The notes below the pieces were generated by a model. That model saw nothing but the letters and a program-made list of their open reading frames with translations. It was not told the origin of the DNA and did not search any database. A stretch of DNA of 38,078 nt from IMG/VR virus record IMGVR_UViG_2561511241_000002; one strand, 5' to 3'. This stretch comes from a virus. Taxonomy: Duplodnaviria; Heunggongvirae; Uroviricota; Caudoviricetes. A program made the position numbers and the translations under genes. Shown here in pieces: positions 1 through 37,344 of this stretch; the stretch's first letter is position 1; each line of letters opens with the position of its first letter.

Positions 1-1017
1 TCACACTTCTAGCGTTGCGAGGGGGTTGAATCTCAGAGCCGTCTCAAGATGATCGGGTGCTAAATGGGCATAGCGCATAGTCATTTTTATATCGTGATGT
101 CCGAGGATTTTTTGCAAAGCAAGGATATTTCCACCCGACATCATGAAGTGCGCCGCAAACGTATGGCGCAGAACGTGTGTCAGTTGACCGCGAGGGAGCA
201 CGATAGACGTTTTTTCCATCACGGATAAAAATTGAAAATAGCAGTCTGTAAAGAAATTGAACCCATCAAGCGCCATGATCTCTTCGTAAAGCTCTTTACT
301 GATAGGGATGCTTCTGTTTTTCTTCCCCTTCGTTCTTACAAAGGTAATTCGGTATTTGGTCACTTGCGAGCGGGTAAGATTTATTGCTTCTCGCCAGCGT
401 GCGCCTGTGCTTAGGCATATCTTGACTACCAGTGCCAGAATTGGGTCCTGACGTTTGCAATCAGCCAGCAGTTCAACAATCTGCTCATGGGTAAGCCATG
501 CCATCTCTTTTTCTGCGATGGTGAATTTTCGCATGTTCTCCAGTGGGTTCGGATACGACCATTCGCCCAGGCGGGATAGTTCGCTAAAAACACTACTTAG
601 ATAGCTTTGCTCCAGGTTAATGGTGACCGGGCTTGCTCCTTTCTTCCATTTCTCGCTGAAGTAGATCTCACCTGTCAGGCGTTTATCTCGATAGTGGGCA
701 AACATTTTAGAGGTTAGATCAGTTGCAAGGGGATTGCCCAGAGCGTCAACCATCAACAGCAGTTTGTCATAGACATGCTGCCCAGCTGTCAGAGATTTAC
801 CATGTAGTTTGAACCATAGCTCAATCACGTCTTTCAATGTCCGACGATCCACTGATTCGCCCAGCCAGGGCTTTGCTTCGGTTTCTTCCATCGTGTGACG
901 CTCAAAAGCCAGAGCTTCGCCTTTGGTGGCGAATTGTTTACGCACACGACGTCCACTACGTCCGGCGGGGTAACATTCGCAAAGCCATTTTCCTGTAGTG
1001 AGTTTTCGTACTGCCAT
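1..1017 (-). CDS. int: tyrosine integrase (P2/186 family)
   Basis: ORF 1..1095 (-); likely start is internal Met (MAVRKLTTGKW...) at 1017; C-terminal tyrosine-recombinase signature ...LRHTFAAHFMMSGG...HHDIKMTMRYAHL. Stop codon occupies positions 1-3. Confidence 0.9.
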   Translation of the reverse strand: MAVRKLTTGKWLCECYPAGRSGRRVRKQFATKGEALAFERHTMEETEAKPWLGESVDRRTLKDVIELWFKLHGKSLTAGQHVYDKLLLMVDALGNPLATDLTSKMFAHYRDKRLTGEIYFSEKWKKGASPVTINLEQSYLSSVFSELSRLGEWSYPNPLENMRKFTIAEKEMAWLTHEQIVELLADCKRQDPILALVVKICLSTGARWREAINLTRSQVTKYRITFVRTKGKKNRSIPISKELYEEIMALDGFNFFTDCYFQFLSVMEKTSIVLPRGQLTHVLRHTFAAHFMMSGGNILALQKILGHHDIKMTMRYAHLAPDHLETALRFNPLATLEV

Positions 1018-1046
1018 AAAAAATGCCCTCCAGTAGAGAGCATTTT

Positions 1047-1066
1047 TACTGTATGTATAACCAGTG
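1047..1066. promoter_or_regulatory. LexA-box-like sequence (CTG-N10-CAG) upstream of int
   Basis: TACTGTATGTATAACCAGTG matches the E. coli SOS box consensus TACTGTATATATATACAGTA at 16/20 positions including both CTG/CAG arms. Confidence 0.3.
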
Positions 1067-1203
1067 TCAATGTATGAAATCCTGCGACCATACATCTCAC
1101 TGAAGCCATAATGAAGTTAGCTATTTTTTGCTATGTGAGTATGTGACTTTTGCGGTTAGCCTGCGGCTCATTGTTATATTAGGCGCAGATATAAAAGCAA
1201 AAT

Positions 1204-1410: not shown

Positions 1411-1980
1411 TTACCTAACGTACTTAATTGTTAAACTTATAATTTTCCCAATTATTTCAACATCTTCTATCTTGCACTCGAAGGCTCTGTTTCCACCCTC
1501 GACGAAGATTCTTCCACCGGGTAAACGAGTAATGTCACGGATCGTTATTTCGCCATCAATACTTATTACCCATTTACCATCACGTATATCATCAAATTCC
1601 TTATCACAAATAAATTCAGAATTATTATCTGTGATTACAAAAAGATTCTTGAATGCCGACGGTAGAAATTCTCTATCGAAAATATAAAAACCGTCTTCAC
1701 ACAAGGCCCCATCAGATAATACATATTTAGCAACTTCCATAGTATTTGTATTACCTGAAGTTTGCTTTGAACCATGCCCGGTTGTGAGCCAATTAAGTGA
1801 GGTGCCTGTTTCAAGGGCGCACTGGATTACCCATTCTGCTGGGAATGAGTCACGCATGTAGCGTGTGGCGAGTGTACTTTTAGAGATTCCTAAATGATCG
1901 CACAACGCCTGTCGAGTCTTGAATCCATAAGCTTCTACCATGCGCTCTATAGCGCCTCGTCCGCCTTTCTCCAAATTCAT
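1411..1980 (-). CDS. cI: 186-type CI immunity repressor (about 189 aa)
   Basis: HTH segment RQALCDHLGISKSTLATRYMRD near N-terminus; length and position (between int and the divergent apl/cII genes) match phage 186 CI rather than the 99-aa P2 C. Start chosen at ATG 1980 (GGAG 5 nt upstream). Confidence 0.75.
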   Translation of the reverse strand: MNLEKGGRGAIERMVEAYGFKTRQALCDHLGISKSTLATRYMRDSFPAEWVIQCALETGTSLNWLTTGHGSKQTSGNTNTMEVAKYVLSDGALCEDGFYIFDREFLPSAFKNLFVITDNNSEFICDKEFDDIRDGKWVISIDGEITIRDITRLPGGRIFVEGGNRAFECKIEDVEIIGKIISLTIKYVR

Positions 1981-2009
1981 GGTCACTCCAAGTGAACTTT
2001 TATCTTGAC

Positions 2010-4766: not shown

Positions 4767-5588
4767 ATGCACCACGGAATTCATCATTTCCATGGGACGC
4801 CTGTCTGGGGAAGTGCTGGCGACGTTCATCGTATTGCGGTGAGCGGAGCTGGCGCTTTCGTCTCCTATGTACGACCAGATCAGATTGCGGCGTCCATTCA
4901 GCACGCTCAGGTCGTCGGCATTGATAACGGCGCATTTTCTGCATGGGTGCGTGGGCTAAAAATTAACTGGAGTGATTTTTATAAATGGCTCCTGAACTAT
5001 TACCACCATCCTAAGGTCGCTTTTTTTGTCATTCCTGATGTTGTAGACGGCGGTGAACGTGACAATGATGCCCTGATAAACGAAGTTCCGAAAATGTTCT
5101 ACGGGAAGGCAACTCCCGTCTGGCATCTGCACGAGTCAATCGATCGGCTTATCGAGCTATGTCGTGAATGGCCTCGTGTCTGCTTTGGATCGTCTGGTGA
5201 ATATGCGGCTATCAGAACTGCGCACTGGCATCGTCGTATGCAGGACGCTTTTGAAGCAATTTATTGCCGACACAATTTCAAAACAGCTGTTCATGGTTTG
5301 CGCATGCTTGACGGTCGTGTGTTGGGAAATTACCCACTGGCGACTGCCGACAGTACAAATCTTGCCTGCAATGTCCCCAAATTTAATAGCAAATATCCTG
5401 AGCTTACGCGGGCTATTCAGGAGGCTGAGTATTCGCGCAATCTGACGGAAAAGGAGCTGAAAGCTGTCATTCTGAAAAACCGTTGCGCAATTTTAAAAGG
5501 TGCAATTGAAGCTGTTCGCCCACCTTCAGTTTCTGATTGGCTGTCGAATGGTTTGCAGCCTTCACAGCTCGAACTGGAGATTGCGTAA
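4767..5588 (+). CDS. conserved hypothetical protein, translationally coupled to dam (alternative GTG start at 4758)
   Basis: ORF 4758..5588; start overlaps dam stop; its stop overlaps the A start (TAATG). No motif I can assign. Confidence 0.55.
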
Positions 5589-7960
5589 TGAACTACAGCT
5601 ATTCCTGGAATGCTGAGAAAAAAGCAATCAATCCTTACGTAGGGACAGAAGAGCAATCTTCAGTTTCTGCGCTTTCAAACCTGATCGCTCTGTACGCTGC
5701 CGATAACGAGCAGGAACACCTGCGCCGCGAGGTACTGAGTGATCAGGTCTGGGAGCGTTATTTCTTTAATGAATCCCGTGATCCTGTCCAGCGCGAAATG
5801 GAGCAGGATAAGCTCATTAGTCGGGCAAAGCTGGCGCATGAGCAGCAGCGTTTTAATCCAGATATGGTCATTCTGGCGGACGTCAATGCCCAGCCTTCCC
5901 ATATCAGCAAGCCGCTGATGCAACGTATTGAATACTTCAGCAGCCTGGGCAGGCCAAAGGCTTATTCCCGCTATTTGCGTGAGACGATTAAGCCATGTCT
6001 GGAACGACTGGAGCATGTACGCGACAGTCAGCTATCCGCTTCTTTTCGCTTTATGGCAAGCCATGAAGGGCTGGATGGCCTGCTTATCCTGCCTGAAATG
6101 AGTCAGGATCAGGTGAAGCGCCTGTCTACCCTTGTCGCTGCGCATATGAGCATGTGCCTTGATGCAGCTTGTGGTGATTTGTATGCCACCGATGACGTTA
6201 AGCCAGAAGAAATCCGCAAGACATGGGAAAAGGTGGCAGCGGAAACCCTGCGTCTGGATGTTATCCCGCCTGCGTTTGAGCAACTCCGTCGGAAAAGAAA
6301 CCGCCGTAAACCCGTGCCCTATGAACTCATTCCGGGTTCGCTGGCGCGTATGTTGTGCGCCGACTGGTGGTACCGGAAATTATGGAAGATGCGTTGCGAA
6401 TGGCGGGAAGAGCAGTTGCGCGCTGTCTGCCTGGTCAGCAAAAAAGCATCTCCTTATGTCAGCTATGAAGCCGTGATGCATAAACGTGAGCAGCGCCGTA
6501 AGTCGCTGGAGTTTTTCCGTTCTCATGAACTGGTGAACGAAGACGGCGACACGCTGGACATGGAGGATGTGGTAAACGCCAGCAGCAGCAACCCTGCGCA
6601 TCGCCGCAATGAGATGATGGCCTGTGTTAAAGGTCTGGAGCTTATCGCGGAAATGCGCGGTGACTGCGCCGTTTTCTACACCATCACCTGTCCGTCACGT
6701 TTCCATTCCACGCTAAATAACGGCAGGCCCAACCCAACCTGGACAAATGCGACGGTAAGACAAAGTAGTGATTACCTGGTCGGCATGTTTGCTGCATTTC
6801 GTAAGGCGATGCACAAAGCCGGATTGCGCTGGTATGGCGTGCGGGTGGCTGAGCCGCATCATGACGGTACAGTTCACTGGCACCTGTTGTGTTTTATGCG
6901 CAAAAAAGACCGCCGCGCCATCACTGCATTACTGCGTAAGTTTGCCATCCGTGAAGACCGCGAGGAGCTGGGCAATAACACTGGGCCGCGCTTTAAGTCT
7001 GAGTTGATTAACCCGCGCAAAGGTACGCCAACAAGCTACATCGCGAAATACATCAGTAAGAACATTGACGGGCGTGGTCTGGCTGGCGAGATCAGCAAGG
7101 AAACGGGGAAATCCCTGCGTGATAATGCTGAATACGTTAATGCCTGGGCGTCTCTGCATCGTGTTCAGCAATTCCGCTTCTTTGGCATTCCGGGGCGTCA
7201 GGCTTACCGTGAACTGCGATTGCTGGCTGGTCAGGCGGCAAGGCAACAGGGGGACAAAAAAGCAGGTGCGCCGGTACTGGATAACCCGCGCCTTGATGCA
7301 ATCCTGGCTGCTGCTGATGCTGGTTGTTTTGCCACCTACATCATGAAGCAGGGCGGCGTACTGGTTCCCCGCAAATATCACCTGATCAGAACCGCTTATG
7401 AAATCAACGAAGAGCCGACCGCCTATGGCGATCACGGCATTCGTATTTATGGCATCTGGTCACCCATTGCAGAGGGCAAGATCTGCACTCATGCAGTGAA
7501 GTGGAAAATGGTTCGTAAGGCCGTTGACGTTCAGGAGGCGGCAGCCGACCAGGGCGCTTGCGCCCCTTGGACTCGTGGCAATAACTGTCCCCTTGCTGAA
7601 AATTTGTACCAACAAGGGAAAGACAAATCAGCTGATGGGGATACCAGAACGGATATCACCCGCATGGATGACAAGGAATTGCACGATTACCTGCACAGTA
7701 TGAACAAAAAAGAGCGCCGGGAACTGGCTGCAAGGTTACGCCTGGTGAAACCGAAACGGCGTAGAGACTACAAACAGCGAATTACAGATCATCAGCGACA
7801 GCAGCTCGTCTATGAACTGAAGTCCAGAGGATTTGATGGCAGCGAGAAAGAGGTCGATTTACTCCTTCGCGGTGGCAGTATTCCGTCAGGAGCAGGCCTG
7901 CGTATCTTCTATCGGAACCAGCGTTTGCAGGAAGATGATAAGTGGCGGGATCTGTATTAA
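5588..7960 (+). CDS. A: replication initiation endonuclease (P2 gpA family, rolling-circle)
   Basis: 790 aa; HUH-like motif VHWHLLCF and paired active-site tyrosines in [10 protein letters not shown] as in P2 A. Confidence 0.9.
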
Positions 7961-8052
7961 TTACGCGGGTTAACAATTCGTGCTCTTAATAATACCAGGC
8001 ATACCAGGCTGATGAACGTAAAAAAACGTTTTACATCAGTAAGATTATTATA

Positions 8053-8087
8053 TACTGTAAATATAAACAGTGGTTATGTATACAGTA
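8053..8087 (+). promoter_or_regulatory. SOS operator: tandem LexA boxes overlapping the promoter of the DinI-like operon
   Basis: Box 1 TACTGTAAATATAAACAGTG (perfect CTGT-N8-ACAG) at 8053-8072; overlapping weaker box CAGTGGTTATGTATACAGTA at 8068-8087; TTTACA/TATACT promoter-like hexamers just upstream. Confidence 0.65.
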
Positions 8088-8112
8088 TTGCTTTGGTGTC
8101 ATAGGAGGAAAG

Positions 8113-8301
8113 ATGCAGGACTATTTTTTGGAGTCTTTGAAGCTCCAGCGCATTGATTTTTTTCTTAAGCTTGTAGCGGCTAGTGAGTGTAGTGATGAAG
8201 AGAAGGGGCTGGCCCTGCAGTGGGTTTCTGAACTGACAGATGAACTCATGGCAAAAATCAGAACCCATGAATACAACCGCTCAATGGATGTCATCAGCTG
8301 A
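8113..8301 (+). CDS. hypothetical protein (62 aa), first gene of SOS-regulated operon
   Basis: ATG 8113 preceded by AGGAGGA; may correspond to the N-terminal part of a 186 Tum-like antirepressor, here as a separate ORF. Confidence 0.5.
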   Translation: MQDYFLESLKLQRIDFFLKLVAASECSDEEKGLALQWVSELTDELMAKIRTHEYNRSMDVIS

Positions 8302-8311
8302 GGTGACTTTT

Positions 8312-8545
8312 ATGCGCATTGAAATAATGATCGATAAAGAGCAGAAGATTAGCCAGTCTACACTGGACGCCCTTGAATCCGAGCTTTACCGCAATCTGCG
8401 CCCCCTGTATCCCAAAACGGTAATTCGTATCCGCAAAGGTAGCTCTAACGGTGTGGAACTGACCGGACTGCAACTGGACGAAGAAAGAAAACAAGTGATG
8501 AAAATTATGCAGAAGGTCTGGGAGGACGACAGCTGGTTACACTAG
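8312..8545 (+). CDS. DinI-family protein (77 aa)
   Basis: MRIEIMIDK...DALESEL...VWEDDSWLH parallels E. coli DinI (MRIEVTIAK...WESADDW); ATG 8312 with GAGGTG SD. Confidence 0.8.
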   Translation: MRIEIMIDKEQKISQSTLDALESELYRNLRPLYPKTVIRIRKGSSNGVELTGLQLDEERKQVMKIMQKVWEDDSWLH

Positions 8546-8551
8546 CGAACG

Positions 8552-8586
8552 TTGCGGACGATAAAACTGGTTTTTATCGTCCGCAA
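8552..8586. terminator. perfect 15-bp-arm palindrome (hairpin) after the DinI-like gene
   Basis: TTGCGGACGATAAAA-ctggt-TTTTATCGTCCGCAA; no clean U-tract, so terminator versus protein-binding site is unresolved. Confidence 0.4.
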
Positions 8587-9000
8587 GGTTGAACAACGAG
8601 CCGCGTGAGGCGTTAGAAACGGGTAGTGAAAAGTGATTTAAGAATGCCTTGTTCCCCTGAAACTTTGGCCTATGCAACAACATTCGACAGCTTTCTTGAT
8701 TATCATAAGTAACTTGAAGTTTAGGGACGATTCTGATGGTATACGTGAAAAATGTATCGTGTGTTGCTTTGGCAAAAAGGAGTTTTAGTGGACAACGGCT
8801 CAATCACCTTCTTTGATATTACTGCTTGTGGGTTTTATCGTTTAAAGAATAAACCCGAAGAGCTTGATTATAAATTCGGCGATCTTATGGGGGTTTTGGA
8901 CGATTTAGAAGGGTGACTCAAGGATAAAAATTTTGAGCAGACTCTCCCATGGAATAAAGAAGAACAACCTCTGCGAACACGAGTTTACAGTCGAGGCCTT

Positions 9001-9951
9001 GTGAGGGACAGCCAGACTAAAGATGCAGTAATTGTTTTATACCGTGAAGTGGGGAACGGTAACGGAATACATGGTATTAAGGTCGGTTCTAAAGTAAGTG
9101 GTGATAGTAAAGGAACCATTAGGGCGGGAAGAGAACATGGTGAGGATAAAATAATTTGGGGTGAACCCTGCTATTACTGGATTATTCCTGAGTTGAATAA
9201 AATAGCATCAATCAGATTCCCCCATTCTTTCGCTGATACTTATCTCTTCGCACAATACTTCATTCAGCATGTAAATAATAATAGTAAGTTAGGTAAAAGA
9301 ACGAAATCTAAGCGTACATTTGAATCAGCTAAGACCCCTGGTCGTTGTGTGGATGTCTACAATACTAAGTTTCAATATAAAGATGGCAAAAATGAGATAA
9401 ACTGTATCTTCAAGTTTGTATTGGAAGAAACAAAACTTAAAGCCGCTGAGGAAAACTTTGAAAGGTTAAGGCATAAAATTACACACACATTGATAAAGGA
9501 TACAACGGTAATAAACCAAAATGACACAAGGCAACCATTGTTGAAGCTAACAAGTGTAGCTTTAGCATCTCTGGTGGGTGAAGAAAAGCGTAATAAGCTT
9601 ATTGGGGCACCTCCTGTTTTGGAGCAGCCTCGTAAAATTGAAGTTAAAATTGACGGTGCACCATCATCGGATGAGCTTCGAAATCTCTTCTCAATGAGAG
9701 GTGAAGAGTCTGAATGGGATGTGGGTTTTTTACTGGCTGATCGTGCTAATCCGGTTTGGCTCAGTAGCTATGTAGCCAGGACTAAACTTCCTCTTCAAGA
9801 TTCGGATGGGTTTGAGCATTATTCAGCGCGTTTTTTACTGGATGAAATAAACAAAATTCGTGATGATTTGATTAGTGAAGTAAAATATGCTGAGGAAGCA
9901 TCCATTAAAGAATCTGAAGCTGCATCCACAAAAAAGATAGCGGAAGGTTGA
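9001..9951 (+). CDS. uncharacterised cargo protein (316 aa from GTG 9001), first gene of two-gene operon; frame stays open upstream to 8752/8788 apart from one in-frame TGA at 8914
   Basis: AT-rich ORF; stop overlaps the next gene start (TGATATG). Upstream in-frame segment carries a strong SD (AAGGAG, 5 nt before GTG 8788). Candidate Rx4-6H element in ERLRHKITH (weak). Confidence 0.6.
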   Translation: MRDSQTKDAVIVLYREVGNGNGIHGIKVGSKVSGDSKGTIRAGREHGEDKIIWGEPCYYWIIPELNKIASIRFPHSFADTYLFAQYFIQHVNNNSKLGKRTKSKRTFESAKTPGRCVDVYNTKFQYKDGKNEINCIFKFVLEETKLKAAEENFERLRHKITHTLIKDTTVINQNDTRQPLLKLTSVALASLVGEEKRNKLIGAPPVLEQPRKIEVKIDGAPSSDELRNLFSMRGEESEWDVGFLLADRANPVWLSSYVARTKLPLQDSDGFEHYSARFLLDEINKIRDDLISEVKYAEEASIKESEAASTKKIAEG

Positions 9952-9952
9952 T

Positions 9953-10489
9953 ATGACAGAAACGGAAGGTTTGATAATAACAGTTGCAAAACAGCAGGCG
10001 ATTAATTTTGTTGCTGTTGTTTTGTGCTGCGTTATAAGCTATTTTTCGTTCAAAAGTTTTTCCTATAATGATGCAAAAGATATTTTAGGTGCGCTTATAA
10101 ATATTTCAGCATCTATATTCACTATTGTCGGTTTATGGGTCGGTTTTTTATATCCGAATGCAATGAATAGTATTGTTAAGGATGATGTAAGTTATATAAA
10201 AAATGAGCATGACTCACCAAGAATAGAGAAATTAGTTTATACAATAATCACATCTGCTTGTGTTATGGCTGGGATTCTAATTTTCTTTTTGGTTAAGGCA
10301 GTGTTTTATGCATTACCTGTTTATCAAGCTAATAAAGACTTGTTTAAATACATTGGTATTTTCTTCATTTACTTTATTAGCTGGATGCAATTAAAATGCG
10401 TTATGAGCCTGATTTTGAGTAATTTACATTTTGTTAATCACTTACATGGACGTTTAGCAAAAGCGAAATTAGAACACTATGATGAATAA
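9953..10489 (+). CDS. small integral membrane protein with four predicted TM helices (178 aa)
   Basis: Four hydrophobic segments (INFVAVVLCCVISYFSF, ILGALINISASIFTIVGLWVGFLY, LVYTIITSACVMAGILIFFLV, YIGIFFIYFISWMQL); translationally coupled to the upstream gene. Confidence 0.7.
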   Translation: MTETEGLIITVAKQQAINFVAVVLCCVISYFSFKSFSYNDAKDILGALINISASIFTIVGLWVGFLYPNAMNSIVKDDVSYIKNEHDSPRIEKLVYTIITSACVMAGILIFFLVKAVFYALPVYQANKDLFKYIGIFFIYFISWMQLKCVMSLILSNLHFVNHLHGRLAKAKLEHYDE

Positions 10490-10633
10490 AGTGTTCGTAT
10501 TGGCAGGAGTTACTGTGGATGTTTAACCTCAACAAGAGTAAGCCTCCTTTAACATGGGAATCACCGTTCTAACAAGCTTTGCATGTCTATGCTGCATGAA
10601 TCCGCATGATCGTTTTAGGATCGTTTTTGCTGA

Positions 10634-10658
10634 GGCCCGCCAGAACTGGCGGGCTTTT
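10634..10658. terminator. GC-rich hairpin with flanking T/A runs (bidirectional intrinsic terminator)
   Basis: GGCCCGCCAG-aa-CTGGCGGGC followed by TTTT; T-run also on the other side. Confidence 0.55.
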
Positions 10659-10702
10659 GCTTATGTCATGCACCTGCATGAAAACCACTACATAAAGCGG
10701 GC

Positions 10703-10721
10703 AGGCGTGGCGGGGATACGA
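10703..10721. other. candidate cos cohesive-end core (P2/186-like)
   Basis: GGCGTGGCGGGGATACGAG: first 13 nt identical to the 186 cohesive end as I recall it (GGCGTGGCGGGGAAAGCAT), 15/19 overall; sits in a GC-richer non-coding stretch between two AT-rich cargo blocks. Confidence 0.3.
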
Positions 10722-10856
10722 GCGCGCTCTGATATGAAAATCTGAACAAAAAATTACAAAATGGTATCTTTTTGTTGCTATCATCATTTTTGATGGTAAC
10801 TTAACCTTTTCAGTTTCTATATTATAAAATTCTATCCAGAAGAAGGAATTTGTTTC

Positions 10857-12638
10857 ATGGCTGAACTATTACCGCAAACAACTTCTATACAAACTATTTA
10901 TTCATGGTTTACTGAAGGTAAGATATTTGTTAATAGACGTTATCAACGAAAATTAGTTTGGACTGCAATAGAGAAACAAAAATTAATTGAATCCATTCAA
11001 AAAAAATATCCAATTCCTGCAGTTCTTCTCGCGGAAAGGGAAAATGATCCTGGCACATATGAAATAATTGATGGCCTACAAAGATTACATGCAATAATGT
11101 CTTTCATCGAAACAGGATATGAATCACTTGATGGAAAACGTTTTAATCTGGACGCTTTTCCCACAGCGAAAAATCGAGCGGATGAAGGTAAGTTTGTTGC
11201 AGTGAAAGCTGATAATCTTTTAAGTCAGCGTGAGGTTACTCAGTTATTGGATTATTCTCTTGCAATGTCCATTATGCGTAATGCGACTGAGAACGAAATA
11301 AATGATGTTTTTGATAGAATTAATACATACGGGCATAGACTTAGTGATCAAGAAAGGCGCCAGGCTGGTATACAAAATAAATTTTCAAATATGGTTAGGG
11401 ATATTGCCTGTTCTATCAGGGGGGATGTATCTGACGACATATTGCTTTTAGAGCAAATGCCGTCTATTAGCATTGATTTGCCACTAACTAAACATGGTTA
11501 CCAAATTCAGTCGGAAGAAGTATTTTGGGTAAAACATGGGATCTTACGTTCAACAGACCTTCGTGACAGTATGGATGAGCAATGCATTGCAGATATAGCA
11601 GCTTGTATTGTTGGAGGTAAGTTAATAGATCGTTCCAAAGATGCGCTTGATCAGATTTATAATAATGAAGATGAAGAGTATAGTCGTATTAGCTCTGCTA
11701 TTAATGTTTATGGTGAAGGAAAATTTGCAGAAGAGTTTAAATTCTGCATCCAGGAAATAACAAAAGTATGTAATAGTGACGGTGAAATTAAACTCAGGGA
11801 TTTAATCTTTACTAAACGTACTACAAATGCTTTCCCAGCCATATTTGCTGTGTTATTTATTGCTTTTCATGAATTACTCATTAAAGAAAATAAGAAGATT
11901 AATAATTATAAAGGTGTAAAAGACAATCTTAATAATATAGTCACTCGACTAGATACTAAAAGATCTGCTACTGGTGGGGAAGAGAGAAGAAAGAATATTA
12001 ATTCTATCATAGGCTTGATTAAAGATAACTTTATTGATAGCGCCGATAGCAGTCATATCTATAATTCTCACAATACGGTGGATATTGAGGATATTTTACG
12101 AAGATCTGAAATAGAGCTTGCAAATTATGAACTGAAACAGGGTTTGTTGATGTTAGGCGGAGAGCGAACTATTGATGATGGCATTCATGAGAAAATATTC
12201 TCCACAATTTGTGCTATTGCTAACATCGGTAAAGGTAACAAGAACGGTGTAGTTGGTAAGTTATTGCTTGGTGTAACAGATAAACCAAGTGATACAAGTA
12301 GAGTAAAAGAGCTTGATGATATAGATGCACATGTAGTTGGTGAGAGAAGTGTTGTTGGTGTTAAAAGAGAAGCTATTAAACTCGGCATATCAATGGAAGA
12401 ATATTATAGACGTTTTTGCGATGAGTTGAAAAAATCTGCTTTGAGTGAGCCTCTTAAATCACAAGTGGTGAGTTTGATTGACTATAATGACTTTTATGGT
12501 TATGGAGTTATAGTTATTACAATTCCACTTCTAGCATCTTATTCTAGTTATGATGGGGATATTTATTATCGTGCTGGCGATAATACCGTAAAAGCAACAG
12601 TTATCGAAGCAGCAGATATTGCAACACGTTTTAAATGA
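10857..12638 (+). CDS. DUF262 (ParB/GmrS-like N-terminal domain) protein, 593 aa, C-terminal region unassigned
   Basis: N-terminal RRYQRKLVWTAIEKQKLIESI and EIIDGLQRLHAI match the DUF262 signature (FQR..vW...Q..LIdS; IIDGQQR); no H-x-x-P His-Me finger (DUF1524) motif seen in the C-terminal half. Very AT-rich. Confidence 0.8.
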   Translation: MAELLPQTTSIQTIYSWFTEGKIFVNRRYQRKLVWTAIEKQKLIESIQKKYPIPAVLLAERENDPGTYEIIDGLQRLHAIMSFIETGYESLDGKRFNLDAFPTAKNRADEGKFVAVKADNLLSQREVTQLLDYSLAMSIMRNATENEINDVFDRINTYGHRLSDQERRQAGIQNKFSNMVRDIACSIRGDVSDDILLLEQMPSISIDLPLTKHGYQIQSEEVFWVKHGILRSTDLRDSMDEQCIADIAACIVGGKLIDRSKDALDQIYNNEDEEYSRISSAINVYGEGKFAEEFKFCIQEITKVCNSDGEIKLRDLIFTKRTTNAFPAIFAVLFIAFHELLIKENKKINNYKGVKDNLNNIVTRLDTKRSATGGEERRKNINSIIGLIKDNFIDSADSSHIYNSHNTVDIEDILRRSEIELANYELKQGLLMLGGERTIDDGIHEKIFSTICAIANIGKGNKNGVVGKLLLGVTDKPSDTSRVKELDDIDAHVVGERSVVGVKREAIKLGISMEEYYRRFCDELKKSALSEPLKSQVVSLIDYNDFYGYGVIVITIPLLASYSSYDGDIYYRAGDNTVKATVIEAADIATRFK

Positions 12639-12641
12639 AAG

Positions 12642-12663
12642 AACGCCTGCTCAGGCAGGCGTT
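12642..12663. terminator. bidirectional terminator hairpin between convergent DUF262 gene and Q
   Basis: AACGCCTGC-tcag-GCAGGCGTT, 9-bp stem, 4-nt loop, 3 nt after the DUF262 stop. Confidence 0.6.
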
Positions 12664-12678
12664 AATTATAAACAGGAA

Positions 12679-13704
12679 CTACAAAATATATTTATTAAAT
12701 GTAATTATATTTTCATCTAGCCAACAATTAAGCGCTTGCATCAATTTTTGCAAAGGTAAAAGCTCATTCCGCACAAATACCTTACTAGCTTTCTCTACAT
12801 CCCCAAACCCCCCGACATTGCTAGGCATAATCCCCATCATTTGCGGCGGTACGCGATGTGCTGCCATCATGTCATCGCGGCTGACATTTTTGATATTCAG
12901 AAACTCATCCTTCGCCGCGACTTCTGACAGAGGAATGATCTGAAGCCCATCCTTTTTGCCGTTAGGCGAGTACATAAACAGGTTGCGGAAGTTACCCGGT
13001 CCTTTGGCGCTTTTCATTGCGTTGCGGAGGTTGTTCACATCCTCCTGGTTTTGCGCGGCATCGGTCATGTACATGATGAAGCCTGCATGACTGCCGTTAA
13101 TGTAATACTTCCGGCGGAACAGCGTGGCGGACTCGTTGAGCAGAGCGGATGGAATAGCAGAAAGATAGCCAGGCAGGCCGTAGATCTCCTGATTAATATC
13201 CGGTTCCATCAGATGAAAGATGCTGCCTTTCGTGAACTGATACGGCTGGGTTGCCATACCGTATTGCACAAACCAGTAGGTATCCAGGTCTAATCCGCGT
13301 CGAGTGTATTTTGCCAGGGCAGGTTCAAGGGCGATAACTTCACCGAAGCGGTTCGTGCGTTTCTCCAGGTAGGCATTACCAAATACCAGATAGTCCTGCA
13401 CAAAACGTGAAAAAGCCTGCTGGCTGAGCAACGGGTGAGGGATATAGGTGCTGGTCAGAATGTTGCACTTTACTGCAATCGGTGAGCTGTGGTGTACGGC
13501 GGCGCGGAAGGTTCGCGCCAGGCCGTCGAAACTCACTGGTGGCTCATACCAACGGTCCATCTGTACGCATTCCACATAGTCCAGCAGTTCGCGGCGGTCC
13601 AGAACAGGAACGGGATCACCGAAGCTGAATGCTTCGGCTGAAGTCTGGTTTTTATGCTGGATCTGTTTCGTCGCCGCAGCGCGGTTCTTCTTACTCTTTC
13701 CCAT
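12679..13704 (-). CDS. Q: portal protein (P2 gpQ)
   Basis: 341 aa; start ATG overlaps P stop (TGATG); synteny Q-P divergent from O-N-M. Confidence 0.9.
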   Translation of the reverse strand: MGKSKKNRAAATKQIQHKNQTSAEAFSFGDPVPVLDRRELLDYVECVQMDRWYEPPVSFDGLARTFRAAVHHSSPIAVKCNILTSTYIPHPLLSQQAFSRFVQDYLVFGNAYLEKRTNRFGEVIALEPALAKYTRRGLDLDTYWFVQYGMATQPYQFTKGSIFHLMEPDINQEIYGLPGYLSAIPSALLNESATLFRRKYYINGSHAGFIMYMTDAAQNQEDVNNLRNAMKSAKGPGNFRNLFMYSPNGKKDGLQIIPLSEVAAKDEFLNIKNVSRDDMMAAHRVPPQMMGIMPSNVGGFGDVEKASKVFVRNELLPLQKLMQALNCWLDENIITFNKYIL

Positions 13705-15470
13705 CAAAAAATCTCCACAATATTGCTGGTATTGGCGGACTCGCCCTGCAGTGGTTCGTTAAACAGTGCGTGCATTGTTGCCCAGGCCAGATCGGCATGG
13801 CTGGCTTCTTCGCTGCGGCTGGCTTCATAGGTCGGGCGGTTGCCGCTGGCGGTGGTGGCGCGACGGATTGCCATGAATGACTGCGCAATGTCGGTGTGCC
13901 CGGCGTCAAACTCAAGACGGCGGTGGCTGATAATGTCGTAGGCCTTGAGTACCAGGGCGTTTTTAACGTTGGGGTTGTAGACAAACTCCCGGACGGCAGG
14001 AAAAAACGCTTTCACGTTCTCGTAAACCCCGTGACCAACGCCGGTTGAGTCGATGCCGATATAGGTCACGTTGTACTGTTCGGTCAGTTTTTTGATGGCG
14101 TCAGCCTGGGCGCGAAAGTCCATTCCGCGCCACTGGTGACGCTCAAGAATGCGGAACTTACCGCCTGGCACGGCTGGCGGTGCCACCACCACGCATCCGG
14201 CGCTGTCGCCGTTCTGCGTACCTTTTGCCGGGTCATAACCGATCCACACTTCGCGCCAGCCAAACGGGCGCAGGGCCAGTGCATGAAAGTCGGTCCAGAC
14301 TTCCCAGCTGTCCACCATGCACGCCTGCAATTCGCTGAGCGGGAACACGGACGCGAGATCGTCCACGAACTCGCACATCAGCAAGTTCTGGTATTCGTCA
14401 GGGCTGTACTCCATGCGCAACTGGTCAAGGTCGAACAGGTTACAGCCGCCGCGCACCGCATCTTCCACGGTGACTATCTGGCGGTATTGCCCGTCTGCGC
14501 ACAGCAGGCCGGGGGCCAGATTGCTGTGGGACAGGTCGATGTCCACCTTATCGGCTCTGTTGCGCCCACGGTTGAACAGCGCACCGGACCAGAACGGATA
14601 AGCACTGTGTGTCAGACTGGATGGCGTGGAAAAATAGGTCTGTCGCCATTTCTTGTGAATAGCCATACCGGAAGCCACTTTGCGCAGCTCCTGGAATTTC
14701 GGTATCCAGAAATATTCATCCAGATACAGGTTGCCGTGGTAACTCTGGGCCGTGCGGGCATTGGTGCCGAGGAAGTACAGCGTGGCCCCGTTAGGAAGCA
14801 CCATCGGATCGCCTTTCAGCTCCACCTCCACTTCTTTGGCGAAGTCGATGATGTACTGCTTAAAGACGTGGGCTTGTGCCTTACTGGCGGAAAGGAAAAT
14901 CTGGTTACGCCCGGTTAGCAGAGCGTCAATCAGGGCTTCACGGGCAAAATAGAAGGTCGCGCCGATCTGGCGTGACTTCAGCAGGTTGCGGATGCGGTTG
15001 GTTTTTCCGGCTTCCCACCAGTGGCGCTGGTAGTTGAACATGGAGGAATGGAAGATTTCTTCCAGCTTCTCAATCTGTTCATCGGTGAAAACGTTCTTTT
15101 CCGGCTGACGGCGCGGGCCTTTGTTGCGGTTGGCGACGTTAGGGTTTAAGTCGGCTTCGTTGCCGCCATTGTTAAACTTGCCGATCCGCGCATGGCGCTC
15201 CGACTGGCGCGCCAGCAGGTCAATCTCTTTGAAATCTTTCCCTTCTTTGTGCTCCTTCATAATGAGCTGGCAGTAGCGTGCGGCGGTGGTGAGCTGCATC
15301 TGATCCAGCGGCCCATAGTCACCCCACTTGTCGCGTTTTTTCCAGCTGTGAACGGTTGCAACTTTCTCGCCCAGCATTTCAGCAATGCGGGCTACGCGGT
15401 ATCCCTGAAAGTACAGCAGCATGGCCTGCCGACGGGGATCGAGATCTGCGGGTGTCAGTGTGGTGTTCAT
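13704..15470 (-). CDS. P: terminase large subunit (P2 gpP)
   Basis: 588 aa, length and position as P2 P. Confidence 0.9.
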   Translation of the reverse strand: MNTTLTPADLDPRRQAMLLYFQGYRVARIAEMLGEKVATVHSWKKRDKWGDYGPLDQMQLTTAARYCQLIMKEHKEGKDFKEIDLLARQSERHARIGKFNNGGNEADLNPNVANRNKGPRRQPEKNVFTDEQIEKLEEIFHSSMFNYQRHWWEAGKTNRIRNLLKSRQIGATFYFAREALIDALLTGRNQIFLSASKAQAHVFKQYIIDFAKEVEVELKGDPMVLPNGATLYFLGTNARTAQSYHGNLYLDEYFWIPKFQELRKVASGMAIHKKWRQTYFSTPSSLTHSAYPFWSGALFNRGRNRADKVDIDLSHSNLAPGLLCADGQYRQIVTVEDAVRGGCNLFDLDQLRMEYSPDEYQNLLMCEFVDDLASVFPLSELQACMVDSWEVWTDFHALALRPFGWREVWIGYDPAKGTQNGDSAGCVVVAPPAVPGGKFRILERHQWRGMDFRAQADAIKKLTEQYNVTYIGIDSTGVGHGVYENVKAFFPAVREFVYNPNVKNALVLKAYDIISHRRLEFDAGHTDIAQSFMAIRRATTASGNRPTYEASRSEEASHADLAWATMHALFNEPLQGESANTSNIVEIF

Positions 15471-25442: not shown

Positions 25443-26044
25443 TGGATAACGCCGTATTAAATAGCGAGCTTATTGCCACGAAGGCGGGGAATATTACAGT
25501 CTATAACTATGATGGTAAAACTCGGGAATATATTTCTACTTCAAATGAATATCTTGCCATTGGTGTCGGTATCCCTGCATATTCCTGTTTAGATGCCCCT
25601 GGCACACATAAGGCTGGTTATGCAATCTGCCGTTCTGCAGATTTTAACTCATGGGAATATGTGCCAGATCATCGCGGTGAAACGGTCTATAGCACCGAAA
25701 CAGGAGAATCAAAAGAAATCACCGCTCCGGGTGATTACCCTGAAAATACAACCACTATCGCCCCATTAACGCCATACGATAAATGGGATGGTGAGAAATG
25801 GGTGACGGATACCGAGACACAGCATAGCGCCGCAGTAGATGCAGCAGAAGCACAGCGCCAGTCGCTGATTGATACTGCAATGGCTTCCATCAGTCTGATT
25901 CAACTGAAATTGCAGGCCGGACGTAAACTGACGCAGGCAGAAACAACCCGACTTAACGCTGTGCTGGATTACATTGACGCGGTGACGGCAACAGATACCA
26001 GCACCGCGCCGGATGTCATCTGGCCTGAACTGCCGGAGGCGTAG
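25442..26044 (+). CDS. G: tail fibre assembly chaperone G
   Basis: 200 aa; C-terminal DYIDAVTATDTSTAPDVIWPELP motif shared with the inverted paralogue. Confidence 0.8.
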   Translation: MDNAVLNSELIATKAGNITVYNYDGKTREYISTSNEYLAIGVGIPAYSCLDAPGTHKAGYAICRSADFNSWEYVPDHRGETVYSTETGESKEITAPGDYPENTTTIAPLTPYDKWDGEKWVTDTETQHSAAVDAAEAQRQSLIDTAMASISLIQLKLQAGRKLTQAETTRLNAVLDYIDAVTATDTSTAPDVIWPELPEA

Positions 26045-26468
26045 GCCATTCAATATCTGGCGCACCGGAAGTATCGACCAGTTCCAGTGCGTCCAGGTAA
26101 TCCAGCCACAAATTATATTGCGCCAGTTCGTCACCTTTCAGACGACCAATAGCCGCTTTACCAGGCCATTGCTTACTGTTCATGTATTCGTTGGCCTGGT
26201 TAATTAGTAGCTGTCTTTCTGATTCAGTAATTTCAATAAGCTCTTCATGCGTGGGTGGAGGAATATCTGCCCACGCAGGCAGCCCATCATCTCCGGCAAT
26301 ACGGATTTTTCCTTGTGGCGGTTCAGCCATAAACTCACTGATAATATTTTGATTTACTTCCTTAGCGTCTGATAAATCCCATCCCTCTGATTTATATTTA
26401 TCAATCATATCCACAGGGAAAAAAGCATTATGCCTTGCGCTATAAACATATTCGTTCATATAAATCAC
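26016..26468 (-). CDS. alternative tail fibre assembly chaperone (G')
   Basis: 150 aa; C-terminal LWLDYLDALELVDTSGAPDIEWPTPP paralogous to G; 3' ends of G and G' overlap convergently. Confidence 0.7.
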   Translation of the reverse strand: MIYMNEYVYSARHNAFFPVDMIDKYKSEGWDLSDAKEVNQNIISEFMAEPPQGKIRIAGDDGLPAWADIPPPTHEELIEITESERQLLINQANEYMNSKQWPGKAAIGRLKGDELAQYNLWLDYLDALELVDTSGAPDIEWPTPPAVQAR

Positions 26469-26479
26469 CCTGAATAAAA

Positions 26480-26852
26480 TTACTCACCAACAGCCCACCA
26501 ACTGTAATTCATCGATACCGTGTCGCTGGTTGATGACGTTCTGTAAGCAGAATTAAAACCGGTTAATGTTGGGCCTTCTGCGGTCATCACGAATCCCCGC
26601 CCAGCACCTAAAGGCGCACCACCATCACCAGAATGAGTAAGCATGGCGCAGTCCACTTTTTTAGGAAAAGGGATGCTGAATGTAATTCTCATTGTTTGCG
26701 TCGATAATGTCGGCGTAACCGCACCACGACCATATTGCAGGATTTTCCCGTTGGGTAATTTCATCCATCCATCACCACTGGCAAAAGAGGCCATGTCCGG
26801 TATCTGATTTTCCCCTGTCCCTACATCCCGTTTTGCCGCTTCTCCCAAACCA
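26480..26852 (-). CDS. alternative tail-fibre C-terminal cassette (H'), in frame with the hix site, would replace the current H C-terminus after inversion
   Basis: Minus-strand frame reads ...VGLGEAAKRDVGTGENQIPD... through the hix-like repeat in the same phase as H (...YLGLGEGSA...). Confidence 0.6.
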
Positions 26853-26865
26853 ACGTTTAAGAAAA
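26840..26865. promoter_or_regulatory. second hix/gix-like crossover site
   Basis: TTCTCCCAAACCAACGTTTAAGAAAA; left half is the reverse complement of GGTTTGGGAGAA found at 24963-24974. Confidence 0.5.
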
Positions 26866-26914
26866 TGCAGCGATTACGACTAACTGGCATCATCCCCGAT
26901 TTTTATTCAAGGAG

Positions 26915-27487
26915 ATGATCATGCTTATTGGCTATGTACGCGTGTCAACAAATGACCAGAACACCGATTTGCAACGTAGTGCGCTGAACTGCGCGGGATG
27001 TGAGCGGATTTTTGAGGATAAAATCAGTGGCACTAAGTCCGACAGACCGGGGCTGAAAAAACTGCTCAGGACACTATCGGCAGGAGACACGCTGGTTGTC
27101 TGGAAGCTGGACAGGTTGGGGCGCAGTATGCGGCATCTTGTTACGCTGATAGAAGAGTTGCGCCAGTGTGGCGTGAATTTCCGAAGCCTGACTGACAGTA
27201 TTGATACCAGCACCCCAATGGGCCGTTTCTTTTTTCATGTCATGGGGGCCCTGGCTGAAATGGAACGCGAACTGATAGTTGAACGTACCAGGGCGGGGCT
27301 GGCTGCAGCTCGTGCTAAAGGCAGAGTAGGTGGACGCCGTCCTAAGTTGACCACCGAACAGTGGGCACAGATTGGACGTTTACTCGAGGCCGGAGAATCA
27401 AGACAGCGTATTGCACTGATTTTTGATGTGGGTGTTTCCACAATTTATAGAAAATTTCCGGCAAATAAGAGCAATGAATCCCCCTGA
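26915..27487 (+). CDS. Hin/Gin/Pin-family serine DNA invertase
   Basis: MLIGYVRVSTNDQNTDLQR...VVWKLDRLGRSM...SPMGRFFFHVMGALAEMEREL, near-identical in pattern to e14 Pin; catalytic Ser in YVRVST. Confidence 0.9.
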   Translation: MIMLIGYVRVSTNDQNTDLQRSALNCAGCERIFEDKISGTKSDRPGLKKLLRTLSAGDTLVVWKLDRLGRSMRHLVTLIEELRQCGVNFRSLTDSIDTSTPMGRFFFHVMGALAEMERELIVERTRAGLAAARAKGRVGGRRPKLTTEQWAQIGRLLEAGESRQRIALIFDVGVSTIYRKFPANKSNESP

Positions 27488-34776: not shown

Positions 34777-34860
34777 CGCTGCCGCCATTTTGTCGCCATC
34801 GTTAAAAAACAGTGCTTCTAACATCATGATTTTAAACATCTTAAATTTCAGGCAACAAAA

Positions 34861-34905
34861 AACCCATCAACCTTGAACCGAAATGGCGGGGTTGATGGGC
34901 TCCAC
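34861..34905 (-). terminator. intrinsic terminator (minus strand) downstream of ybjL, close to the prophage-host junction
   Basis: On the minus strand CCCATCAACC...GGTTGATGGG followed by TTTTTT. Confidence 0.45.
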
Positions 34906-35011
34906 AAAATGGGGACATCAAAGAAAAGCAGTGGCACTAATTAAGACTGATGCCCTGCGGAAAAGTTCTGCGGTTGTGCAAAAAAATTTCATTTTCAGGG
35001 CAACTTCAGTT

Positions 35012-36966: not shown

Positions 36967-37344
36967 GTGAAACATAAACAACGTTGGGCGGGGGCAATCT
37001 GCTGTTTTGTCCTCTTCATTGTGGTGTGCCTTTTTCTGGCGACGCACATGAAAGGCGCTTTTCGGGCTGCCGGGCATCCTGAAATCGGCTTGCTATTTTT
37101 CATTCTTCCTGGAGCAGTCGCCAGCTTCTTTTCACAGCGTAGAGAAGTCCTGAAACCTCTGTTTGGCGCAATGCTGGCGGCACCCTGTTCGATGCTCATT
37201 ATGCGGCTGTTTTTTTCACCGACGCGCTCATTCTGGCAAGAGCTGGCATGGTTATTAAGTGCGGTGTTCTGGTGTGCGCTGGGGGCACTGTGTTTCTTAT
37301 TTATCAGTAGTTTGTTTAAACCACAGCACAGAAAAAATCAGTAA
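36967..37344 (+). CDS. ybjM: inner membrane protein YbjM
   Basis: 125 aa, multi-TM. Confidence 0.75.
   Translation: MKHKQRWAGAICCFVLFIVVCLFLATHMKGAFRAAGHPEIGLLFFILPGAVASFFSQRREVLKPLFGAMLAAPCSMLIMRLFFSPTRSFWQELAWLLSAVFWCALGALCFLFISSLFKPQHRKNQ

What the first reader, a model, noticed from the sequence alone, without database searches (positions are those of the whole stretch)
10857..12638. Stand-alone DUF262-type protein without recognisable DUF1524 nuclease domain, placed between candidate cos and portal gene
The N-terminal ~100 aa carry the DUF262/ParB-like signature (RRYQRKLVW...; IIDGLQRL, with L replacing the usual Q of DGQQR). This domain is found in GmrSD-type modification-dependent restriction enzymes, SspE and BrxU, where it is paired with a C-terminal His-Me finger nuclease. 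Here the ~450 C-terminal residues show no H-x-x-P type motif, so the effector part may be novel. The gene is extremely AT-rich, has its own promoter region and is terminated by a hairpin shared with Q.
Basis: partly seen in the sequence, partly recalled or inferred. Interest (0 to 1): 0.75.

Follow-up and report, generated by a model that had tools for sequence, protein, structure and literature searches.

The report
Prophage DUF262–Schlafen anti-phage nuclease gene
The gene is real and stands alone, but its "unknown" C-terminal half is a Schlafen-type nuclease domain, which makes it one more member of a bacterial anti-phage family (DUF262–Schlafen fusions) published in 2025–26, sitting in a known defence-gene slot of P2-like prophages.

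Summary
The ORF at 10857..12638 (+), 593 aa, is real. It equals RefSeq WP_000818977.1 in a P2-like prophage of E. coli UMNK88.

This DUF262–Slfn architecture is the published class pSlfn7 (Perez Taboada et al., Nat Microbiol 2026). Its tested member, EcoSlfn7 from E. coli UC4224, protects broadly, best against T7. The only homologue I found in UC4224 is 60% identical end to end and lies in the same cos–Q slot of a P2-like prophage.

No conserved neighbour gene was found, so it is a single-gene system. Most likely a ParB-like NTPase/DNA sensor gates a Schlafen RNase that cuts tRNA on infection. Trigger and substrate are untested.

Verdict: new member of a known kind; moderate-to-low interest.

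The parts
10704..10722 (.). cos (cohesive-end site) of the P2-like prophage, GGCGTGGCGGGGATACGAG. It is the left boundary of the cargo slot.
   Evidence: It aligns to the annotated cosL/cosR of P2, GGCGAGGCGGGGAAAGCAC. The same motif lies just upstream of the cargo gene in E. coli W, ECCWS199, D9, UC4224 and a P4-like satellite. The surrounding ~150 nt (10580-10740) is 87-94% conserved in P2-like phages of Klebsiella, Salmonella and Yersinia.
10801..10830 (+). Candidate sigma-70 promoter (TTAACC-18-TAAAAT) in the AT-rich 134-nt spacer between cos and the ATG. An AAGGA ribosome-binding site lies about 10 nt before the ATG.
   Evidence: Consensus scan, 9 of 12 matches. The count of such sites in the region equals the shuffled expectation, so this is weak evidence.
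10857..12638 (+). DUF262–Schlafen fusion gene (593 aa, WP_000818977.1), a pSlfn7-class single-gene anti-phage candidate.
   Evidence: ORF. RefSeq annotation. More than 2000 homologues, the best 120 mostly ~590 aa. 273 clusters (50% identity) with E<=1e-30, and most of the listed ones are co-linear over the full length. 60% identical over its full length to the UC4224 protein.
10902..11366 (+). DUF262 / ParB-like NTPase domain (residues 16-170). Motif I is Q30-R31-xxx-W35, motif II is D72-G-L-Q-R76 (nt 11070-11084), motif III is F152-xxx-N156.
11367..12041 (+). Mostly helical middle domain (residues 171-395) of the NsnA-C / GmrSD-M / SspE-M ('ParBDB') type. It includes a highly conserved stretch at residues 188-247.
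   Evidence: The PADLOC NsnA profile matches residues 7-383 to profile positions 49-370 of 385, E=8.1e-31. Secondary structure comes from the model. The definition of ParBDB is in PMC12065111.
12042..12635 (+). Schlafen/AlbA_2 nuclease domain (residues 396-593, fold from about residue 405). The catalytic motif E420-x4-E425-x-K427 lies at nt 12114-12137.
12642..12663 (.). Terminator hairpin (9-bp stem, 4-nt loop) between the convergent stop codons of the DUF262–Slfn gene and Q. It occupies the position of P2's tQ.
   Evidence: Sequence. Terminator scan: found on the minus strand with tail CTTTCATTTA. P2 tQ is annotated at the equivalent place. Each alternative cargo carries a different hairpin.
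12679..13707 (-). Portal gene Q, the right boundary of the slot (context). RefSeq annotates it at window 12679..13704.
   Evidence: ORF. RefSeq 'phage portal protein'.

Best explanation
The gene encodes a single-protein anti-phage defence system of the DUF262–Schlafen class (pSlfn7). The P2-like prophage carries it as cargo in the variable slot between cos and the portal gene.

**Anatomy (shown here)**
- An N-terminal ParB-like DUF262 NTPase domain with all three nucleotide-binding motifs.
- A helical domain of the type that binds DNA in SspE.
- A C-terminal Schlafen nuclease domain with an intact Ex4ExK active site.

**Mechanism (inferred)**
1. In the lysogen the nuclease is held inactive.
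2. When a foreign phage infects, the DUF262 plus helical module detects a nucleic-acid or nucleotide cue, probably phage DNA and not dependent on base modification.
3. The module undergoes an NTP-dependent conformational or oligomeric switch.
4. The switch releases the Schlafen nuclease.
5. The nuclease cuts tRNA (host and phage) in the anticodon arm. Translation shuts down and phage yield falls.

The steps rest on analogy: the switch on BrxU, SspE and GmrSD, and tRNA cleavage on RorSlfn5, SLFN11 and SAMD9.
For: - **Catalytic and nucleotide-binding residues:** QRxxxW, DGLQR, FxxxN and E420/E425/K427 are invariant across 36 homologues from Proteobacteria and cyanobacteria.
- **Stand-alone status:** E. 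coli W has the identical gene with a different upstream gene. The three homologues examined on long contigs (one named Achromobacter sp.) share no neighbour gene.
- **Defence context:**
  - The slot lies within the defence hotspot near cos of P2-like phages described in PMC9122126 and PMC13586616.
  - The same slot holds an AIPR-family or a PIN-domain gene in near-identical prophages.
  - A 62%-identical homologue sits between psu and int, next to cos, in a P4-like element.
- **Experimental support by homology:** PMC13056530 reports that the DUF262–Slfn fusion of E. coli UC4224 (EcoSlfn7) reduces plating of many phages, T7 by about 540-fold. It also reports that RorSlfn5 cleaves tRNA through the same motif. 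UC4224 carries one detectable homologue. It is 60% identical, co-linear, and in the same cos–Q slot of a P2-like prophage.
Against: - Nothing was tested on this allele. It shares only 50% identity in the Slfn domain with the rest of the family, and its own Pfam Slfn score is below the gathering cutoff.
- The equation of the UC4224 protein with EcoSlfn7 is inferred, because the paper's supplementary tables were not readable.
- The trigger and the substrate of any DUF262–Slfn protein are unpublished.
- The top structural match, the SAMD9 AlbA_2 domain, was crystallised with DNA, so a DNA substrate is not excluded.
- Sequence-profile searches against PDB found no Schlafen chain. The link to solved Schlafen structures therefore rests on the fold comparison alone; the Pfam match and the motif support the domain assignment independently.
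Confidence: 0.75

Rival explanations
1. It is a GmrSD-like type IV (modification-dependent) restriction enzyme in which the Schlafen/AlbA_2 domain replaces DUF1524 as the DNA-cutting module. DUF262 would recognise modified phage DNA and the C-terminal domain would cleave it.
For: - RefSeq names it a 'GmrSD restriction endonuclease domain-containing protein'.
- The N-terminal two domains resemble BrxU and SspE.
- Pfam once described AlbA_2 as a putative DNA-binding domain, and source names still say so.
Against: - No DUF1524/His-Me motif is present.
- The one prokaryotic Schlafen nuclease characterised biochemically in PMC13056530 (RorSlfn5) is a tRNase using this same Ex4ExK motif, and the paper describes human Schlafens as tRNA-cleaving.
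- The tested DUF262–Slfn member is most active against T7. From my own knowledge T7 DNA is unmodified.
Confidence: 0.12
2. It is one component of a larger system together with the two upstream genes (PADLOC candidate PDC-M18A/B, 8788-10489), or it needs Menshen-like or PD-T4-2-like partners.
For: - The three genes lie on the same strand within 4 kb in the AT-rich cargo region.
- The N-terminal 383 residues match the Menshen NsnA profile and the PD-T4-2_A profile.
Against: - cos separates the pair from the gene.
- E. coli W and about a dozen other genomes carry the identical gene without the pair.
- ECCWS199 and D9 carry the pair with other genes in the cos–Q slot.
- PDC-M18A carries a nonsense mutation in this window.
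- No NsnB ABC-ATPase gene, NsnC gene or PD-T4-2_B gene is adjacent.
- The three homologues examined on long contigs have no conserved neighbour.
Confidence: 0.04
3. It is not a defence gene. It would be a catalytically silent DNA-binding or ParB-like accessory protein that serves the prophage itself, for example in cos or packaging regulation or in interference with satellites.
For: - It lies immediately next to cos in P2-like and P4-like elements.
- ParB-family proteins often bind specific DNA sites.
- 30% of prokaryotic Schlafen genes are not near known defence genes (PMC13056530).
Against: - The nuclease and NTPase motifs are invariant.
- The gene is rare: 18 of 5426 complete E. coli genomes. 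In the same slot it is replaced by an AIPR-family or a PIN-domain gene.
- Homologues occur in chromosomal contexts with no phage gene called nearby.
- A 60% homologue is reported to be protective.
Confidence: 0.05

Closest known systems
EcoSlfn7, the DUF262–Slfn fusion (class pSlfn7) of E. coli UC4224 (Perez Taboada et al., Nat Microbiol 2026, PMC13056530)
   Same: - Same three-domain architecture and length: 589 aa against 593 aa.
- 60% identity with only one 4-residue gap.
- Same motifs.
- Same location between cos and Q of a P2-like prophage.
   Different: - 40% of residues differ, mostly in the Slfn domain.
- The two genes have different upstream and terminator sequences.
- This allele is untested, so its phage range is unknown.
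- The identification of the UC4224 protein (WP_028985442.1) as EcoSlfn7 is my inference.
RorSlfn5, the Slfn–Ig-like fusion and the characterised prokaryotic Schlafen tRNase (same paper)
   Same: Both have a Schlafen nuclease with the Ex4(E/D)xK active site and are single-gene systems fusing a sensor to an effector.
   Different: - The sensor there is a C-terminal Ig-like domain that binds the T5 tail assembly chaperone. Here it is an N-terminal DUF262 plus helical module, most likely sensing nucleic acid or nucleotide.
- Here the sensor is the more conserved half (72% against 57% mean pairwise identity). For pSlfn5 the paper reports the nuclease as the more conserved half.
GmrSD / BrxU / SspE (DUF262–DUF1524 enzymes)
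   Different: The C-terminal DUF1524 His-Me finger DNase is absent and is replaced by a Schlafen domain.
Menshen NsnA and PD-T4-2 protein A
   Same: The DUF262 plus ParBDB module matches the PADLOC profiles: NsnA E=8e-31 and PD-T4-2_A E=2e-18.
   Different: Those are multi-gene systems whose effector is a separate protein (NsnB/NsnC for Menshen, PD-T4-2_B for PD-T4-2). Here the effector is fused and no partner genes are present.
Human SLFN11/12/13 and SAMD9 (AlbA_2/Schlafen RNases)
   Same: The nuclease domain has the same fold and the same acidic motif. These proteins have an antiviral role through tRNA cleavage (PMC13056530).
   Different: They carry entirely different regulatory domains, such as a helicase, a SAM domain or STAND. 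Sequence identity is only 10-19%.

Membership tests
pSlfn7 (DUF262–Schlafen fusion, prokaryotic Schlafen defence proteins) | Schlafen/AlbA_2 nuclease fold | tested here: met
pSlfn7 (DUF262–Schlafen fusion, prokaryotic Schlafen defence proteins) | Catalytic Ex4(E/D)xK motif at the start of the Slfn domain | tested here: met
   E420-LANY-E425-L-K427 is invariant in 36 homologues. In homologues it aligns to the first positions of the Pfam model.
pSlfn7 (DUF262–Schlafen fusion, prokaryotic Schlafen defence proteins) | DUF262 domain fused in the same polypeptide | tested here: met
   PF03235 matches residues 16-170, E=1.6e-22.
pSlfn7 (DUF262–Schlafen fusion, prokaryotic Schlafen defence proteins) | Confers protection against phages | not testable with these tools
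   Only indirect evidence: a 60%-identical homologue in the same slot of UC4224 is reported as protective (PMC13056530).
pSlfn7 (DUF262–Schlafen fusion, prokaryotic Schlafen defence proteins) | Phage-triggered tRNA cleavage | not testable with these tools
   This was shown for RorSlfn5 only. It is not reported for any DUF262–Slfn protein.
GmrSD-family type IV restriction enzymes | N-terminal DUF262 with QRxxxW, DGxQR and FxxxN motifs | tested here: met
GmrSD-family type IV restriction enzymes | C-terminal DUF1524 His-Me finger nuclease ((D/E)HxxP) | tested here: not met
   No Pfam DUF1524/HNH hit at E<=1. No such motif in the sequence. The C-terminus is a Schlafen fold.
GmrSD-family type IV restriction enzymes | Cleavage of modified (e.g. 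glucosyl-hmC) DNA | not testable with these tools
   The reported activity of EcoSlfn7 against T7 argues against a requirement for modification. That T7 DNA is unmodified is my own knowledge.
Menshen (NsnABC) | NsnA-like DUF262 plus ParBDB protein | tested here: met
   PADLOC NsnA matches residues 7-383, E=8.1e-31.
Menshen (NsnABC) | Adjacent NsnB ABC-ATPase and NsnC effector genes | tested here: not met
   Downstream is the convergent portal gene. Upstream are cos and an unrelated gene pair. No such genes lie beside the three homologues examined on long contigs.
PD-T4-2 | Two-gene system with protein B next to the DUF262 protein A | tested here: not met
   Only the DUF262 part (residues 14-184) matches PD-T4-2_A. 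No second gene is present.
Defence cargo of the P2-like hotspot near cos | Variable, low-GC gene(s) between replication gene A and portal gene Q, replaced by other genes in otherwise near-identical prophages | tested here: met
   GC is 35% against 55%. The same slot holds an AIPR-family or a PIN-domain gene in prophages whose flanks are ~99% identical. The hotspot is described in PMC9122126 and PMC13586616.

The most novel reading that the evidence does not exclude
The DUF262 plus helical module may act as a ParB-type NTP-driven switch. It would sense unmodified incoming or replicating phage DNA (or a nucleotide signal) and directly gate a Schlafen RNase. That would be the first described coupling of a ParB-like NTPase to a tRNase. 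Alternatively, in this lineage the Schlafen domain may cut DNA, which would make it a new kind of restriction enzyme. The sensor half is unusually conserved: 72% mean pairwise identity among 36 homologues that include Proteobacteria and cyanobacteria. This fits a universal nucleic-acid cue better than a fast-evolving phage protein as trigger.
Probability: 0.35. Interest if true: 0.6.

Novelty: new member of a known kind. Interest (0 to 1): 0.3.

Why it matters
- **Annotation:** the RefSeq name "GmrSD restriction endonuclease domain-containing protein" is misleading. The gene belongs with the recently described bacterial Schlafen defence proteins.
- **Distribution:** this family recurs in the cos-adjacent cargo slot of both P2-like phages and a P4-like element.
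- **Open question:** what a DUF262/ParB-like sensor detects, and how it switches on a Schlafen nuclease, remains unknown. This allele and its 60%-identical tested relative would make a useful natural pair for mapping specificity.
- **What it does not do:** it does not open a new category of system.

Tried and rejected
- **Sequence searches against PDB.** I used the whole protein, the 36-sequence family profile and a C-terminal-only profile. None found a Schlafen, GmrSD, BrxU or SspE chain. Only fold comparison made the link to solved structures.
- **NCBIfam.** It gave nothing useful, only a sub-threshold ParB hit.
- **PHROGs.** It holds this exact protein as a family of unknown function.
- **Phage GenBank records.** tblastn found no full-length copy, only DUF262-only partial matches covering 31% of the query or less. 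I therefore do not equate the host prophage with any sequenced phage.
- **Literature look-ups.** A search for WP_000818977 found nothing. The two P2/P4 hotspot papers and the E. coli pangenome selection paper I searched do not mention DUF262, GmrSD or Schlafen.
- **Supplementary tables of the Schlafen paper and its preprint.** They are not held, so the accession of EcoSlfn7 could not be read. I located the UC4224 gene by blastn instead.
- **Exact P2 cos sequence.** It is absent even with 3 mismatches allowed. The prophage's cos differs from P2's at five of 19 positions and was found by alignment.
- **Multi-gene system with the upstream pair.** Rejected.
- **Model coordinates.** I could not inspect them, so the spatial clustering of E420/E425/K427 with D475 was not checked.
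Full report
**Where the window comes from.** Positions 8000-13000 are 100% identical to E. coli UMNK88 (NC_017641.1), a porcine ETEC strain.

The window is a P2-like prophage, with these landmarks:

| Feature | Window position |
|---|---|
| Integrase | 1-1095 (-) |
| CI-type repressor | 1411-1983 (-) |
| Replication endonuclease | RefSeq CDS at 5588-7960 (+) (longest ORF 5537..7960) |
| DinI-like gene | RefSeq CDS at 8312-8545 (+) (longest ORF 8240..8545) |
| Portal Q | 12679-13707 (-) |
| Terminase P | 13704-15470 (-) |
| Capsid and tail genes | ~15.6-34.5 kb |
| Host genes | from ~34.85 kb |

GC falls from ~55% in the phage structural genes to 34-39% between 9 and 13 kb.

**Check of the observation.** The ORF at 10857..12638 (+), 593 aa, exists and is annotated in RefSeq as WP_000818977.1.
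- The quoted strings are there: RRYQRKLVW at residues 27-35 and IIDGLQRL at 70-77.
- Pfam GmrSD_N/DUF262 matches residues 16-170, E=1.6e-22.
- No DUF1524 or HNH family appears even at E<=1. The protein has nine histidines, none in an HxxP, HxH or (D/E)H context.
- The gene is 34.7% GC.
- The L in DGLQR is invariant in the family. The accepted motif is DGxQR (PMC12065111), so this is not a deviation.

**Position relative to cos and Q.** P2's annotated cohesive end, GGCGAGGCGGGGAAAGCAC, aligns to window 10704-10722, GGCGTGGCGGGGATACGAG.
- In P2 itself only 167 nt and the terminator tQ separate cos from the stop codon of Q.
- Here the interval is about 1.95 kb and holds this one gene.
- The hairpin at 12642-12663 lies between the two convergent stop codons and scores as an intrinsic terminator on the Q strand.
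- The "own promoter" is a weak consensus match, no better than chance.

Only the promoter remains unsupported.

**What the rest of the protein is.**
- *Middle domain.* PADLOC's NsnA (Menshen) profile matches residues 7-383, E=8e-31. NsnA consists of DUF262 plus a helical domain also found after DUF262 in GmrSD, SspE and DndB, where it is implicated in DNA binding (PMC12065111).
- *C-terminal domain by Pfam.* SLFN_AlbA_2 matches residues 445-580 below threshold (19.8 bits, cutoff 25.3). The same family is found in all 36 homologues tested (best E 7.5e-12). In homologues it scores above threshold, with the match starting at about residue 420 = profile position 1.
- *Active site.* The Schlafen catalytic motif Ex4(E/D)xK, as defined in PMC13056530, is present as E420-LANY-E425-L-K427. 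It is invariant, as are the three DUF262 motifs.

The "unknown ~450 residues" therefore resolve into a known helical partner domain and a Schlafen nuclease.

**Family and context.** More than 2000 database proteins match. The best 120 are mostly ~590 aa and 57-63% identical, apart from 89%-identical Pluralibacter copies and two shorter entries. Named sources include Pluralibacter, Pantoea, Dickeya, Xanthomonas, Paraburkholderia, Achromobacter and cyanobacteria.
- An exhaustive search of 50%-identity cluster representatives finds 273 clusters at E<=1e-30. Most of those listed are co-linear over the full length, down to about 30% identity.
- The three homologues examined on long contigs (one named Achromobacter sp.) share no neighbour. 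E. coli W carries the identical gene behind a different upstream gene. It is therefore a single-gene unit.
- In E. coli it is rare: 18 of 5426 complete genomes carry this allele.
- In prophages whose flanks are ~99% identical, the same cos–Q slot holds an AIPR-family gene or a PIN-domain gene. Each cargo brings its own terminator hairpin.
- A 62%-identical homologue lies between psu and int, next to a P2-type cos, in a P4-like element. Eight further genomes gave the same blastn match; only one locus was inspected.

**What is already known.** Perez Taboada et al. (Nat Microbiol 2026, PMC13056530; preprint July 2025) catalogued 5,930 prokaryotic Schlafen proteins.
- 1.8% of them are DUF262 fusions.
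- The DUF262–Slfn fusion of E. coli UC4224 (EcoSlfn7), expressed from its native promoter, lowers plating of a broad range of phages. The strongest effect is on T7, about 540-fold.
- Another class, RorSlfn5, was shown to be a phage-triggered tRNase acting through the same motif.

I located the UC4224 gene by blastn.
- It is WP_028985442.1, 589 aa.
- It lies in a P2-like prophage, 79 nt downstream of the start of cos and convergent with Q. This is the same slot as here.
- It is 60% identical to the window protein over the full length, with one 4-residue gap.
- That this protein is EcoSlfn7 is my inference. The paper's supplementary tables were not available.

**Mechanism.**
- *Shown here:* domain identities, intact NTP-binding and nuclease motifs, single-gene status, and hotspot location.
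- *From the literature:* a close homologue protects, Schlafen nucleases of this type cut tRNA, and DUF262 domains are NTPases that sense DNA and control an attached nuclease in GmrSD and SspE.
- *Inferred:* the DUF262 plus helical module senses a nucleic-acid or nucleotide cue from the infecting phage and, through an NTP-dependent switch, activates the Schlafen nuclease against tRNA.

Two observations bear on the trigger.
- The sensor half is the more conserved: mean pairwise identity is 72% for DUF262, 62% for the middle domain and 57% for Slfn. For pSlfn5 the paper reports the nuclease as the more conserved half and the sensor as the more variable. This fits a generic cue better than a fast-evolving phage protein.
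- EcoSlfn7's best target, T7, has unmodified DNA (my own knowledge). That argues against GmrSD-style dependence on modification.

**Rivals.**
- *DNA-cutting, restriction-like role for the Schlafen domain.* This cannot be excluded, because SAMD9's AlbA_2 domain was crystallised on DNA. It has no positive support.
- *Multi-gene system with the upstream PDC-M18A/B pair.* Rejected. cos separates them, the modules occur independently, and PDC-M18A carries a TGG-to-TGA nonsense mutation at window 8916.
- *Non-defence ParB-like role.* Unlikely, given the invariant catalytic residues and the cassette-like replacement.

**Verdict.** It is a new allele of a published, experimentally supported kind (a DUF262–Schlafen single-gene defence) in a known hotspot. 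What the DUF262 module senses, and how it gates the nuclease, remains unsolved and gives the finding residual value. Interest 0.3.

Noticed in passing
window 8788-10489 (nonsense codon at 8914-8916): The two genes upstream of cos match the PADLOC candidate system PDC-M18A/B (E down to 6.5e-17 and 2.8e-18). In ECCWS199 the A gene is intact at 387 aa; here it carries a TGG-to-TGA change at codon 43. That leaves a 42-aa ORF and a 316-aa GTG-start ORF, so it is probably a pseudogene in UMNK88. The B gene (178 aa, membrane-like) is intact.
   Followed up: yes
window 10704-12700; L003 3205-5075; L004 3205-4470; L010 7922-9840: The cos–Q interval is a cassette slot of its own, separate from the cargo on the other side of cos. 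Near-identical prophages carry DUF262–Slfn, an AIPR-family gene or a PIN-domain gene there. Each cassette has a different terminator hairpin, and the sequence at the 3' end of Q differs between the loci.
   Followed up: partly
L005 7701-9719 (E. coli Ec-FL1-1X; the same blastn match in 8 further genomes): A 62%-identical DUF262–Slfn homologue (WP_063081156.1) sits between psu and int, 250 nt downstream of a P2-type cos, in a P4-like element. The same family is therefore carried next to cos by both the helper-type phage and the satellite-type element.
   Followed up: partly
window 10857-12638 (protein residues 1-170 against 396-593): The presumed sensor (DUF262) is more conserved than the presumed effector (Slfn): 72% against 57% mean pairwise identity in 36 homologues. 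For pSlfn5 the published report is that the nuclease is the more conserved half. Residues 188-247 form an almost invariant stretch that includes a low-confidence loop (207-214) of unknown role.
   Followed up: partly
window 26016-27484: A resolvase/invertase gene (26915-27484, +) lies next to an oppositely oriented tail-fibre C-terminal fragment (26480-26890, -) and a tail-fibre assembly gene (26016-26465, -). This looks like an invertible tail-fibre (host-range) segment. The region is also lower in GC (47%).
   Followed up: no
window 34854-34932 (-), 35012-36697 (-), 36967-37344 (+): The RybB sRNA gene (Rfam, 105 bits) lies at the right edge of the prophage. Beyond it are an Asp-Al_Ex/TrkA_C transporter gene and a ybjM-family gene, so the prophage appears to be inserted beside rybB. 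No tRNA genes occur in the window.
   Followed up: no
window 10580-10740: About 150 nt of non-coding sequence around cos is 87-94% identical in P2-like phages of Klebsiella, Salmonella (SopEPhi, RE2010), Yersinia and E. coli. It is presumably the packaging recognition region.
   Followed up: partly
hits H9/H17 (NZ_CP026085.1, NZ_CM135829.1): Two RefSeq genomes labelled 'DH5alpha' carry this P2-like prophage region, with the same DUF262–Slfn gene and the same two-piece match pattern as E. coli W. From my own knowledge genuine DH5alpha (K-12) has no P2-like prophage, so the strain labels may be wrong.
   Followed up: no
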